Source: a virus
Taxonomy: Duplodnaviria; Caudoviricetes
Reading direction: 5' to 3' (one strand)
Virus record (IMG/VR): IMGVR_UViG_3300027917_000018
Coordinates: 128,001-192,000 of that record
Length of the DNA: 64,000 bases
The translations under genes and the position numbers were made by a program. Under the pieces are notes generated by a model. It worked only from the letters and a program-made list of their open reading frames with translations. It was not told the origin of the DNA and ran no database searches. This document shows positions 38,929-40,381 of the stretch, piece after piece; within the stretch, counting starts at the first letter, position 1; each line of letters starts with the position of its first letter.

Positions 38929-39381
38929 TTAAGAATTTTGTGAACCAACAACCGCCTGAGCCCGTTTGACATGCTGAGCCATTTCCCAGCTCGTGGCCTT
39001 GGCCCGTTGGCGGTCGTAAAGCATGTGCCGAGCCTTGTCCTGGAGCTGGAACAGCCAGTCCTTGTCCTGTTCGGCGCGGCCCAGGGCTTTCTGGACTGCG
39101 TCGGGGTAATCCCGCCTCAGCTCGTGGCAAAAGGCGTTGATGGCCTGTTTCTTGGAATCGGGCAGATTCCAGTGAAAGCCTGGACTGAGCCCGGCCTTGG
39201 CCTGGGCGCGATCCGCAATGCTTTGCTCGATGCGGCGGGCGAGCTTCTTATCCCGGATGCGCCGGGACAGCTCGGCGTACTCCTGCTTCCACTGGGCCGT
39301 CCATGCCAGGTAGGAGGTTTTGTCGGTGAAGGGCGGGCTTGGCCACGTCCCGAACTTTTCCATGCGTTCTTCGTGTGTCAT
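38929..39381 (-). CDS. Hypothetical protein
   Basis: ATGA overlap with the pth2 stop. Confidence 0.6.
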   Translation of the reverse strand: MTHEERMEKFGTWPSPPFTDKTSYLAWTAQWKQEYAELSRRIRDKKLARRIEQSIADRAQAKAGLSPGFHWNLPDSKKQAINAFCHELRRDYPDAVQKALGRAEQDKDWLFQLQDKARHMLYDRQRAKATSWEMAQHVKRAQAVVGSQNS

Positions 39382-39815
39382 AGGAGGTTCAACCGCCGGG
39401 TGATGTGTTGGACTTCGTGCTTCAATGAAGGACCGAACCCAAGGGCGGTGATCGTGGGACGGCCTTCAAAGAAATCGGGGCAGCCGCTGTCGACTACCAG
39501 GAAGTGGGGCACGCCCGCCTCGGCCAGGGCATCCCTGGTCTTCAGCAGGCGTTGCAGGGAGGCTCCCAGGCAGACTTTGGTGCCGGGGAGGTCCTGGGCA
39601 TAGGCCCTGGCCGCCTCCGAGCCCTCAGTGGCCAAATACGCGCCGAGGTAGGCATGTCCTGCCTGCGAGGCGATCTTGCCTGGAGCCATACCCAGGTCGG
39701 TACGCACGACGGCGTACAGACGGAGGACGGGGTCGGGGATTTACGTGAAGTCGGAAGACACGTCACCCGAGGGGATCGGGGACGGGGAACGGTCGGATAC
39801 TTACGTGAATTTCAC
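39378..39815 (-). CDS. pth2: Peptidyl-tRNA hydrolase, Pth2 family, with two in-frame TAA codons in an N-terminal extension
   Basis: Domain LYAVVRTDLGMAPGKIASQAGHA ... TKVCL ... VVDSG ... TITALGFGP; SD TAAGGA 8 nt before GTG 39815; in-frame TAA at 39803-39801 and 39743-39741; final stop TGA. Family call high confidence, start position moderate. Confidence 0.8.
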
Positions 39816-39823
39816 TGGGATGA

Positions 39824-39829
39824 TCCTTA
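39824..39829 (-). promoter_or_regulatory. Shine-Dalgarno TAAGGA for pth2 GTG 39815
   Basis: 8-nt spacer; the same TAAGGA precedes GTG 40848 in this operon. Confidence 0.6.
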
Positions 39830-39854
39830 AGCTATCAGGCTGTCTTTGTCAAGC

Positions 39855-39929
39855 TGGCGCTGCTGGCGGGAGTTGAACCCGCAACACGGGAGGTTAAAGC
39901 TCCCTGCTCTGCCGTTGAGCTACAGCAGC
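39855..39929 (-). tRNA. tRNA with anticodon UUA (ochre/UAA suppressor), CCA encoded
   Basis: GCTGCTG-TA-GCTC-AACGGCA-GAGC-A-GGGAG-CT[TTA]AC-CTCCC-GTGTT-GCGGG-TTCAACT-CCCGC-CAGCAGC-G-CCA; all four stems pair. Confidence 0.92.
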
Positions 39930-40381
39930 TTCAAAATCCTGGTTGTGCTGAAACCGGTCATGAGCGGGATGAAGCGGATTTCGCCGCCATTCTTGAGGAC
40001 CACGTCGCGCTCCCCTTTGTCCACCGTGTCGATGTTGTAGTCGTCGCCCTTGACCCAAATGGCCGGGCAAACCGTATCCAGAAAGCGCGTGGCGCGTTTA
40101 CCGCGAAAGACATACACCCAGTCGACGCATTCAAGTCCGGCCACCACGAAGGCGCGCAGAGCGGCTGGAAAAATCGGGCGGTCCGGCCCCTTGAGCATCC
40201 TGACCGACCGGTCGTCGTTGATACCGACCACCAGCTGCATCCCAAGTTTACGGGCCTCCTGAAGGAAGTGGACGTGGCCTGGGTGGAGGATGTCGAAGCA
40301 GCCGTTGGTGGCGACAGTTGCATGCCGGGCGCTATTGAGGCGCAGTTCCCGCACGTTCGTCAGCAGCTTTGGATTGTCCAT
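39920..40381 (-). CDS. HldE/RfaE domain II-like sugar-phosphate adenylyltransferase
   Basis: ATNGCFDILHPGHVHFL, VVGINDDRSVRMLKGPDRP, WVKGDDY, FSTTRIL; stop TAG lies inside the tRNA 5' end. Confidence 0.85.
   Translation of the reverse strand: MDNPKLLTNVRELRLNSARHATVATNGCFDILHPGHVHFLQEARKLGMQLVVGINDDRSVRMLKGPDRPIFPAALRAFVVAGLECVDWVYVFRGKRATRFLDTVCPAIWVKGDDYNIDTVDKGERDVVLKNGGEIRFIPLMTGFSTTRILKLL

What the first reader, a model, noticed from the sequence alone, without database searches (positions are those of the whole stretch)
39812..39929. tRNA overlaps the upstream stop codon; readthrough frame ends exactly on the pth2 start
Seen: the tRNA 5' end (GCTGCTGTAG) supplies the last codons and TAG stop of the HldE-like gene. 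That frame continues open through the tRNA to TAA (39829-39827) and then TGA (39814-39812), which overlaps the pth2 GTG as GTGA, the coupling motif used throughout this genome. Inference: RNase P maturation would leave a non-stop upstream mRNA (a source of stalled peptidyl-tRNA); ribosomes and tRNA processing compete for the same RNA; and double suppression could translationally couple to pth2. The GTGA coincidence may be chance.
Basis: partly seen in the sequence, partly recalled or inferred. Interest (0 to 1): 0.6.

Follow-up and report, generated by a model that had tools for sequence, protein, structure and literature searches.

The report
Ochre tRNA gates phage Pth2 gene
A 203-kb phage that uses the normal genetic code carries one tRNA, which reads the stop codon UAA, directly upstream of a peptidyl-tRNA-hydrolase gene with two early in-frame UAA stops, so the enzyme is probably made only when that tRNA overrides the stops.

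Summary
The tRNA (39855-39929, minus strand) overlaps the TAG stop of the upstream cytidylyltransferase gene by 10 nt. That frame stays open to TAA and then to a TGA overlapping GTG 39815. None of this exceeds chance, and the overlap is absent from all relatives.

- The tRNA has anticodon UUA, making it an ochre suppressor. It is the only tRNA in the 203-kb genome.
- The Pth2 frame starting at GTG 39815 has two in-frame TAA codons (39803-39801 and 39743-39741). No canonical start lies between the second TAA and the Pth2 domain.

Across 94 related loci (70 distinct leaders), the same early in-frame stop precedes the domain.
- It is TAG in 66 leaders, and 40 of these have a CUA tRNA just upstream.
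- It is TGA in cultured phage Atu_ph07, which carries a UCA tRNA.
- It is TAA here, with UUA.
- No locus shows a mismatch.

Codon-position conservation begins immediately after the stop. TAA ends about a quarter of this phage's genes, so the genome is not recoded.

Best reading: Pth2 translation is gated by the suppressor tRNA. Its purpose is unknown and nothing is experimental.

This scan has recorded the same design in over 100 other genomes. I found no paper describing it.

The parts
39855..39929 (-). Suppressor tRNA with anticodon UUA (reads UAA), CCA encoded in the gene. It is the only tRNA in the 202,975-bp genome.
   Evidence: ARAGORN. Rfam tRNA model, 66 bits, full length, anticodon loop CUUUAAC. 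Homologous to the CUA suppressor tRNAs of relatives (alignment A2).
39920..40381 (-). Cytidylyltransferase-like gene (HldE domain II-like, 153 aa). Its last three sense codons and TAG stop lie inside the tRNA's first 10 nt.
   Evidence: Pfam PF01467, 63 bits. PHROG 7878. C-terminus has the natural length for the family. No homologue of this gene in the relative loci compared.
39824..39852 (-). TTGACA (39852-39847), then 17 nt, then TAAGGA (39829-39824), 8 nt upstream of GTG 39815. This is either a decayed promoter like those of relatives or a Shine-Dalgarno-like AAGGA.
   Evidence: Read from the sequence. Relatives show TTGACA-N17-TACAGT-N7-ATG or TATAAT-N6-ATG at the same place. The consensus scan did not call a promoter here.
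39801..39815 (-). First leader unit: GTG AAA TTC ACG TAA (M-K-F-T-stop). First in-frame UAA at 39803-39801.
   Evidence: Translation. Same architecture as MKET*VSD and MKDT*VSN in relatives.
39741..39800 (-). Linker VSDRSPSPIPSGDVSSDFT followed by the second in-frame UAA (39743-39741). An internal GTG lies at 39761-39759.
   Evidence: Translation. In-frame GC3 is 0.79 against 0.50 and 0.67 in the other frames. TTCACGTAA occurs 3 times in the window against 0.18 expected. Double-stop leaders are common in relatives.
39378..39740 (-). PTH2-family peptidyl-tRNA hydrolase domain (IPDPVLRLYAVVRTDLGM...LNLL, stop TGA 39380-39378). No ATG, GTG or TTG lies between the second TAA and the start of the domain.
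   Evidence: Pfam PF01981, 70.6 bits, profile positions 2-115 of 115, starting 5 residues upstream of the table-11 start GTG 39707. Residue 2 of PDB 2zv3 aligns to R of RLYAVVR.
38929..39381 (-). Conserved small gene of unknown function (150 aa). Its ATG overlaps the pth2 stop (ATGA), so it is probably translationally coupled and therefore also gated.
   Evidence: ORF list. N-terminal motif conserved downstream of pth2 in 7 relatives. No Pfam or PHROG match.

Best explanation
The locus is a two-part translational gate: a phage ochre-suppressor tRNA (anticodon UUA) and, 40 nt downstream, a PTH2-type peptidyl-tRNA hydrolase gene.

Proposed mechanism:
- Translation starts at GTG 39815.
- It meets UAA after 4 codons and a second UAA 19 sense codons later.
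- Without the tRNA, release factors end translation on a 4-residue peptide and no enzyme is made.
- With charged suppressor tRNA, both stops are decoded. This yields a Pth2 with an N-terminal extension of about 31 residues.
- Two stops in series make output depend roughly on the square of suppression efficiency.
- The downstream conserved gene (ATGA overlap) is probably co-gated.

What is shown:
- the tRNA, its anticodon and the two in-frame UAA codons;
- the lack of any canonical start behind the second UAA;
- coding-type conservation directly behind the stop;
- the match between stop identity and tRNA anticodon across relatives.

What is inferred:
- that the tRNA is expressed, charged and competes with release factors;
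- the purpose of the gate.

My preferred purpose is that the early stop acts as a sensor of suppression versus termination capacity. Pth2 would then be made when and as far as stop codons are being overridden or termination is slow, which are the conditions that produce peptidyl-tRNA drop-off.

The 10-nt overlap of the tRNA with the upstream gene's stop is incidental packing.
For: tRNA:
- Full-length tRNA, 66 bits, anticodon UUA, and the sole tRNA in the genome.

Leader and domain:
- The leader reads VKFT*VSDRSPSPIPSGDVSSDFT*IPDPVLRLYAVVRTDLGM.
- The Pfam and PDB alignments start at R/L of LRLYAVV. Starting at the table-11 GTG 39707 would delete about the first 6 residues of the domain, which should cover its first beta strand.

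Relatives (94 loci, 70 unique leaders):
- The bounding in-frame stop is TAG in 66, TAA in 3 and TGA in 1.
- A same-strand upstream suppressor tRNA is CUA in 40 TAG leaders and UUA here. There are no mismatches.
- 58 of 70 have no canonical start between the stop and the domain.
- In most leaders where an upstream in-frame start could be assigned, the stop follows a 2-8-codon mini-ORF (45 of the 56 such leaders).

Cultured phages:
- Atu_ph07 has an in-frame TGA and a UCA tRNA.
- Phosso has an in-frame TAG and a CUA tRNA.

Phylogeny:
- In the tree, this phage sits inside TAG clades, and Atu_ph07 (TGA) pairs with Phosso (TAG). This implies independent switches of stop and anticodon together.

Coding signal:
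- Entropy by codon position right after the stop is 0.58, 0.30 and 1.37 in 38 unique leaders.

Not genome-wide recoding:
- TAA ends 51 of 201 crude genes, and no coding signal runs across an internal TAA.
- The same holds for TAG in relative G002.

Negative controls and context:
- Other phage PTH2 genes are uninterrupted: XacN1, Xoo-sp13, phiM12, Myrna and EBPR siphovirus 2.
- Termination slows and drop-off rises as mini-ORFs shorten from 8 to 2 codons (PMC2490762).
Against: - Nothing is experimental. Expression, charging and the inserted amino acid are unknown, and sequence similarity gave no clue to tRNA identity.
- TAA ends about 25% of this phage's own genes, so an efficient ochre suppressor would extend many proteins. 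Suppression may therefore be weak.
- A non-canonical start remains possible: CTG 39719-39717 or ATC 39740-39738.
- 12 of 70 relatives have a GTG two codons before the domain.
- The start at GTG 39815 rests on an SD-like AAGGA and analogy with relatives.
- The ACGTAGGTT context is also repeated on both sides of the tRNA in some relatives, so it may in addition be a nucleic-acid signal.
- From memory, one reported catalytic Thr of archaeal Pth2 is not conserved in this clade. Peptidyl-tRNA hydrolase activity is therefore assumed, not shown.
Confidence: 0.8

Rival explanations
1. This is ordinary gene structure. Translation of pth2 starts downstream of the second TAA, at GTG 39707 or a non-canonical CTG or ATC. 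The upstream TAAs are then just non-coding sequence, and the tRNA's proximity is a coincidence of a translation-gene neighbourhood.
For: - Table-11 ORF calling gives GTG 39707.
- Every ORF is bounded by some upstream stop.
- 12 of 70 relatives have a GTG two codons before the domain.
- CTG and ATC occur in frame after the second TAA.
Against: - GTG 39707 would remove about the first 6 domain residues.
- 58 of 70 leaders have no canonical start behind the stop.
- Third-position wobble begins at the first codon after the stop.
- An ATG with a promoter or SD lies 2-8 codons before the stop in most loci.
- Stop identity tracks the tRNA anticodon in all three codon classes.
Confidence: 0.08
2. The phage uses an alternative genetic code in which TAA is a sense codon, as in TAG- or TGA-recoded gut phages. 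On this reading pth2 is just one of many recoded genes.
For: - Phage-encoded suppressor tRNAs are a hallmark of recoded phages (Borges et al.).
- The phage carries a suppressor as its only tRNA.
Against: - TAA terminates about a quarter of confident genes, including the 1163-aa and 929-aa ORFs.
- TAA sites with coding signal on both sides are ordinary gene junctions.
- No excess of mini-ORF+TAA starts relative to TAG and TGA.
- Stop-to-stop ORFs of the crude standard-code gene set cover 87% of the genome.
- Relative G002 likewise shows no internal TAG signal.
Confidence: 0.04
3. Ribosomes reading through the HldE-like TAG cross the tRNA, read through TAA 39829 and terminate at the TGA of GTGA, coupling into pth2. 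RNase P cutting leaves non-stop HldE-like mRNA whose stalled products are the substrates for Pth2.
For: - The frame is open as described.
- From established E. coli genetics, an ochre suppressor reads UAG as well as UAA by wobble.
- No separate promoter for the tRNA was found inside the upstream gene.
- In 7 relatives an ORF does run through the tRNA into pth2.
Against: - The overlap and the upstream gene are unique to this genome.
- The frame through the tRNA here is not the one used in relatives and is out of phase with pth2.
- The open stretch and the GTGA are within chance.
- Even after such coupling, the two TAAs in the pth2 leader would still have to be read through.
Confidence: 0.05
4. 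The conserved ACG-TA(G/A)-(G/A)T motif is mainly a nucleic-acid signal, such as an RNA processing site or the insertion or recombination site of a mobile tRNA cassette. On this reading it is not a decoded codon.
For: - In L003, L004, L006 and L007 the motif occurs on both sides of the tRNA, like a target duplication.
- L008 and L091 carry one copy and no adjacent tRNA.
- Nucleotide context is strongly conserved: ACG 42 of 70 before the stop, GTT 44 of 70 after it.
Against: - It does not explain why the middle triplet changes to TAA or TGA together with the tRNA anticodon.
- It does not explain the codon periodicity after the motif.
- In this genome the GGTT part is not kept.
- It is compatible with gating as an added role.
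Confidence: 0.03

Closest known systems
Stop-codon-recoded phages with their own suppressor tRNAs (TAG or TGA reassigned: Lak, crAss-like, Jade, Agate and others; Borges et al., bioRxiv 10.1101/2021.08.26.457843)
   Same: A phage-encoded suppressor tRNA allows translation of phage genes that carry in-frame stops. The proposed role there is to make expression of those genes depend on the tRNA.
   Different: - There, many mostly late and lysis genes are recoded, standard-code coding density drops, and the codons are TAG or TGA.
- Here the genome is standard-code and TAA is a normal terminator.
- The only clear target is one translation-factor gene, hit 4 and 24 codons after its start.
- The codon here is TAA. 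In that preprint, which I read only through term look-ups, TAA appears only in a tally of suppressor tRNAs.
prfB (release factor 2) autoregulation through an early in-frame UGA (established knowledge)
   Same: An early in-frame stop in the gene of a translation-termination or recycling factor makes its synthesis depend on how efficiently that stop is recognised.
   Different: - prfB bypasses the stop by a +1 frameshift, and its own product is the sensor.
- Here the frame is unchanged and a dedicated tRNA is needed.
- Feedback by Pth2 itself is unproven.
Lambda bar and other toxic minigenes (PMC2490762 and references therein)
   Same: Both are 2-8 codon ORFs ending in a stop. At such ORFs termination is slow and peptidyl-tRNA drops off, and the damage is counteracted by peptidyl-tRNA hydrolase.
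   Different: bar minigenes are free-standing and harmful to Pth-deficient hosts. Here the mini-ORF is fused in frame to a Pth gene and paired with a suppressor tRNA.
Suppressor tRNAs of cultured jumbo phages with no known target (XacN1, PMC5852040; Atu_ph07, PMC6102473)
   Same: These are large standard-code phages carrying a suppressor tRNA and a PTH2 gene.
   Different: - The XacN1 authors looked only at read-through past gene ends and found no target. The XacN1 PTH2 is in fact uninterrupted.
- In Atu_ph07 the PTH2 homologue has the in-frame TGA, but it is annotated from an internal ATG as a hypothetical protein.

Membership tests
tRNA (Rfam RF00005), nonsense-suppressor type | Cloverleaf scoring above the family threshold over its full length | tested here: met
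   66 bits against a gathering score of 29, model positions 1-71. ARAGORN call. All four stems are Watson-Crick paired (alignment).
tRNA (Rfam RF00005), nonsense-suppressor type | Anticodon complementary to a stop codon | tested here: met
   Anticodon loop CUUUAAC, anticodon UUA, reads UAA.
tRNA (Rfam RF00005), nonsense-suppressor type | Expressed, aminoacylated and active in suppression | not testable with these tools
   Amino-acid identity could not be inferred from similarity to other phage tRNAs.
PTH2 peptidyl-tRNA hydrolase (Pfam PF01981) | Profile match above the curated threshold covering the whole domain | tested here: met
   70.6 bits against 23, profile positions 2-115 of 115. Matches seven solved Pth2 structures, best 2zv3 at E = 2e-8.
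PTH2 peptidyl-tRNA hydrolase (Pfam PF01981) | Conserved active-site residues and hydrolase activity | tested here: inconclusive
   The Lys of GK and the Asp of VVDSG are invariant in alignment A1. From memory, the Thr reported as important in archaeal Pth2 is not kept in this clade. Activity is not testable here.
Genome-wide stop-codon reassignment (alternative-code phages) | The reassigned stop occurs in frame within many genes and is rarely a terminator, with low coding density under the standard code | tested here: not met
   TAA ends 51 of 201 crude genes. Standard-code stop-to-stop ORFs of that gene set cover 87% of the genome. No internal TAA shows coding signal on both sides.
Genome-wide stop-codon reassignment (alternative-code phages) | Phage-encoded suppressor tRNA for the reassigned stop | tested here: met
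prfB-type autoregulatory early in-frame stop | Conserved in-frame stop near the 5' end of a translation-factor gene | tested here: met
   Stops at codons 5 and 25. The feature is conserved in 69 of 70 leader variants.
prfB-type autoregulatory early in-frame stop | Bypass by +1 frameshift, with the gene's own product as sensor | tested here: not met
   The domain is in the same frame as the leader. Bypass needs a tRNA. Feedback by the product is not testable.
Minigene (lambda bar type) | ORF of 2-8 codons followed by a stop | tested here: met
   The first unit is 4 sense codons plus TAA. Relatives have 2 codons in 19 leaders and 4 codons in 12.
Minigene (lambda bar type) | Causes peptidyl-tRNA accumulation and toxicity when Pth is limiting | not testable with these tools
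   Known only from the literature on E. coli.
Cytidylyltransferase-like (PF01467), HldE domain II type, for the upstream gene | Profile match above threshold and natural C-terminus | tested here: met
   63.4 bits against 21. PHROG 7878. The C-terminus aligns with those of homologues.

The most novel reading that the evidence does not exclude
The tRNA-pth2 pair could be a self-contained sensor of the balance between termination and suppression.
- At a stop placed 2-8 codons after the start, release factors act slowly.
- The share of ribosomes that continue into Pth2 would then report suppressor level and release-factor capacity.
- That share would set the amount of the enzyme that clears dropped-off peptidyl-tRNA.

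In a subset of relatives the tRNA gene lies inside the pth2 reading frame. One transcript would then become either a tRNA precursor (ribosome stops before it) or a pth2 mRNA (ribosome reads through and unfolds it). This would give feedback on the tRNA's own level.

The ochre version here would show that the device can be re-keyed to another stop codon.
Probability: 0.2. Interest if true: 0.85.

Novelty: new variant of a known kind. Interest (0 to 1): 0.7.

Why it matters
Suppressor tRNAs are repeatedly reported in large standard-code phages with no known target. The XacN1 authors say so explicitly.

This locus and its relatives give these tRNAs a conserved, specific target: a peptidyl-tRNA hydrolase gene that cannot be read without them. 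The ochre case is among the most informative, because both leader stops and the anticodon have changed together. That is the kind of covariation that argues for decoding rather than coincidence.

If correct, several things follow.
- It would be a new type of single-gene translational switch built from a tRNA.
- Published annotations would need correcting. Atu_ph07 and Phosso pth2 are called from an internal ATG.
- The cultured phages Atu_ph07 and Phosso offer a direct route to test it and to learn which amino acid is inserted.
- Early-stop leaders of this kind might also serve as compact reporters of suppression efficiency.

Tried and rejected
- **Genome-wide TAA recoding.** I trained a codon-usage model, tallied stop usage, and scanned for coding signal across every stop and for mini-ORF+TAA starts. 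Nothing turned up beyond pth2. The same check for TAG in relative G002 was also negative.
- **Leader motif as a genome-wide element.** TTCACGTAA occurs only 4 times in the genome, and 2 of these are in the leader. The leader motif is unique to pth2 in G002.
- **Conservation of the tRNA/stop overlap.** The upstream gene's homologues lie in unrelated contigs, and none is present in pth2 loci.
- **A promoter for the tRNA inside the upstream gene.** None was found by the consensus scan.
- **Amino-acid identity of the tRNA.** Similarity to the tRNA sets of G002, Phosso and Atu_ph07 gave best matches of 64-74% to several isotypes, which is uninformative. L235, where the post-tRNA TAG is replaced by CTC, differs from TAG at more than one base, so the replacement gives no clue.
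- **RAPP/RGPP arrest motif.** This was a lead from earlier scan notes. It is absent in any relevant frame between 38000 and 41500.
- **Nucleotide similarity to cultured phages.** No match.
- **Catalytic residues of Pth2 from the literature.** The paper I read did not list them.

Full report
**Source.** The window is bases 128001-192000 of a 202,975-bp IMG/VR virus record. It is 60% GC and estimated 89% complete.

**Observation.**
- A tRNA lies at 39855-39929 on the minus strand (ARAGORN; Rfam, 66 bits, full length).
- The upstream 153-aa ORF (39920-40381) is a cytidylyltransferase-like, HldE-domain-II-type protein (Pfam PF01467; PHROG 7878).
- It ends ...KLL-TAG, with the TAG at 39922-39920, inside the tRNA.
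- Read onward, the frame gives 30 sense codons, then TAA (39829-39827), 4 codons, then TGA (39814-39812) overlapping GTG 39815-39813.

None of this exceeds chance.
- The TAG is tRNA nucleotides 8-10, which are nearly invariant in tRNAs and in the family aligned here.
- The protein ends at the natural length for its family.
- A 30-codon open stretch and an A after a GTG are unremarkable in 60% GC DNA.

- The anticodon is UUA, an ochre suppressor. It is the only tRNA in the whole genome.
- The frame that starts at GTG 39815 reads VKFT*VSDRSPSPIPSGDVSSDFT*IPDPVLRLYAVVRTDLGM... Both stops are TAA, at 39803-39801 and 39743-39741, and each follows TTC ACG.
- The PTH2 profile (PF01981, 70.6 bits) matches from R of LRLYAVV onward. 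That is 5 residues upstream of the table-11 start GTG 39707.
- Residue 2 of M. jannaschii Pth2 (2zv3) aligns to the same R. The GTG 39707 start would therefore delete about the first 6 residues, which should cover the first strand of the fold.
- No ATG, GTG or TTG lies between the second TAA and the domain.
- The inter-stop linker has a GC3 of 0.79 in frame, against 0.50 and 0.67 in the other frames.

**Not a recoded genome.** I trained a codon-usage model on long ORFs and selected 201 non-overlapping genes, whose stop-to-stop ORFs cover 87% of the genome.
- 51 of these genes end in TAA, 54 in TAG and 96 in TGA. The TAA-terminated set includes the 1163-aa and 929-aa ORFs.
- Sites where coding signal continues across a stop are ordinary tight gene junctions, with no excess for TAA.
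- Mini-ORF-plus-stop starts are no more common for TAA than for TAG or TGA.

**Relatives.** Searches with the Pth2 protein and then with a profile returned three sets of loci:
- 13 viral loci;
- 80 metagenome loci;
- several cultured phages.

A script anchored on the conserved LYAVVR.D motif analysed 94 loci with 70 distinct leaders.
- The in-frame stop just upstream of the domain is TAG in 66 leaders, TAA in 3 and TGA in 1.
  - The three TAA cases are this phage, L206, and L252, which has an ordinary ATG and is uninterrupted.
  - The TGA case is Atu_ph07.
- A same-strand suppressor tRNA lies upstream in the fetched flank in 40 of the TAG leaders, always with anticodon CUA. Here it is UUA.
- No locus shows a mismatch.
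- 58 of 70 leaders have no canonical start between the stop and the domain.
- In 56 of the 70 leaders an upstream in-frame start could be assigned. There the stop usually follows a very short ORF: 2 codons (MT*) in 19 leaders, 4 codons in 12, and 3 or 5-8 codons in 14.
- The codon before the stop is ACG or ACA in 57 of 70. The base after the stop is G in 63 and A in 7.
- Many leaders have TATAAT 6-9 nt before the ATG, which implies a leaderless mRNA. This phage has TTGACA-N17-TAAGGA-N8-GTG at the same place.
- Double-stop leaders like ours are common, for example L173 MKPT*...PFT*DQTLRLY. Both stops are always of the same kind.

**Cultured phages add a third codon class.**
- Atu_ph07's only reported suppressor tRNA is UCA (PMC6102473). 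I confirmed it at L167:1471-1545.
- The Atu_ph07 Pth2 homologue reads MIGEHF-TGA-INYEE...KLRIYSIVRDD behind an SD. It is annotated from an internal ATG as a hypothetical protein.
- Its relative Phosso has MKY-TAG-VEEK... and a CUA tRNA.
- More distant phage PTH2 genes are uninterrupted and serve as negative controls: XacN1, Xoo-sp13, phiM12, Myrna and EBPR siphovirus 2.

**Tree.** In a quick maximum-likelihood tree, this phage is sister to the TAG-bearing L091 group, inside TAG clades. L206 (TAA) sits elsewhere, and Atu_ph07 (TGA) pairs with Phosso (TAG). This is a quick search with limited resolution. It suggests that stop and anticodon have switched together at least twice where both are known. 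Ochre suppressors also read UAG by wobble (established E. coli genetics). That gives an easy path: the anticodon changes C34 to U first, then TAG changes to TAA.

**Translated across the stop.** In 38 unique leaders with identical spacing, entropy by codon position after the stop is 0.58, 0.30 and 1.37. Third-position wobble starts at the very first codon behind the stop. The region between stop and domain is therefore under protein-coding selection in the pth2 frame, although it holds no start codon.

**Relative G002.** G002 (199 kb) carries 40 tRNAs and one CUA suppressor 27 kb from pth2, with its own promoter. It shows no internal TAG signal in long genes, and its leader motif is unique to pth2. 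The gate is therefore gene-specific there too.

**Mechanism.**
- Shown: the parts and their covariation.
- Inferred: ribosomes start at GTG 39815, and release factors compete with the suppressor tRNA at codon 5 and again at codon 25. Only double read-through yields Pth2. The downstream conserved gene, whose ATG overlaps the pth2 stop, is probably coupled.

The literature on minigenes states that as ORFs shorten from 8 to 2 codons, termination slows and peptidyl-tRNA drop-off rises. It also states that Pth counteracts the damage (PMC2490762). An early stop is therefore where a suppressor competes best, and it is the kind of element whose by-products Pth removes. The purpose of the gate remains open. 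It could be a timer, a sensor of termination capacity analogous to prfB, or insurance against the consequences of suppression.

The route through the HldE-like frame is not supported.
- The overlap is unique to this genome.
- The frame through the tRNA here is out of phase with pth2.
- RNase P cutting would indeed remove the upstream gene's last codons and stop. That inference is sound, but it looks like a side effect of gene packing.

One related idea does gain support elsewhere. Seven unique relatives lack a start between the tRNA and the TAG. In all seven, the pth2 frame runs open through the tRNA in the same phase. Where an own start exists, phases are spread 19:13:11. In L235 the only TAG lies before the tRNA.

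**Prior knowledge.** Borges et al. describe suppressor tRNAs driving expression of many recoded late genes. The XacN1 paper states that no target of its suppressor tRNAs could be found. Full-text searches found no description of a suppressor-gated Pth2. The library is limited to open-access papers, so this is not proof of absence. This scan's own notes record the same design in at least 111 other genomes, and two other first-reader notes on this very stretch state the ochre-gating idea. These are unchecked AI notes. My reading rests on the calls cited above.

**Caveats.**
- There is no experiment.
- The charged amino acid is unknown.
- A strong ochre suppressor would extend a quarter of the phage's own proteins.
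- Non-canonical starts cannot be excluded.
- The enzymatic activity of this Pth2 clade is assumed.

Noticed in passing
L003, L004, L007, L232, L235, L237, L250 (relatives): In seven unique relatives with no start codon between the tRNA 3' end and the TAG, the pth2 reading frame runs open through the suppressor tRNA gene. All seven use the same phase, and the frame begins at an ATG-led leader with its own TAG upstream of the tRNA. In L235 the post-tRNA TAG is replaced by CTC, so only the pre-tRNA TAG remains. One transcript may serve as either tRNA precursor or pth2 mRNA.
   Followed up: partly
window 38929-39381 (-): A conserved small gene lies directly after pth2 with an ATGA overlap. Its motif, roughly F.xK.EYLAW/YR.xWK.xY.xLS.xIR, recurs downstream of pth2 in 7 relatives. 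It has no Pfam or PHROG match.
   Followed up: partly
L006:2560-2969: An HNH-type homing-endonuclease-like ORF is inserted between the suppressor tRNA and pth2. Its stop overlaps the ATG of the MNNTFT* leader.
   Followed up: no
L145:1201-1566 (Atu_ph07, MF403008) and L147:1201-1566 (Phosso, PV764938): The published annotations start the PTH2 homologue at an internal ATG (AUZ95035.1 'hypothetical protein'; XYS97424.1). This cuts off the first strand and misses the upstream ATG-plus-stop leader.
   Followed up: yes
L151:1489-1607 (Atu_ph07): A tRNA with a 47-nt insertion in the anticodon loop, missed by ARAGORN but found by Rfam at 57 bits. It is probably an intron-containing tRNA.
   Followed up: no
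L099:653-721: A second, partial copy of the Pth2 N-terminus (23 residues, 70% identical to ours) lies about 800 nt upstream of the full gene in a 543-kb phage contig.
   Followed up: no
whole genome G000: This 203-kb phage has a single tRNA, the suppressor. Relatives with the same pth2 design carry 40-67 tRNAs (G002, G004, G005). The suppressor-pth2 pair therefore persists without a tRNA array.
   Followed up: partly
L208: Besides the CUA tRNA upstream of pth2, this metagenome contig has a tRNA with anticodon UCA on the opposite strand.
   Followed up: no
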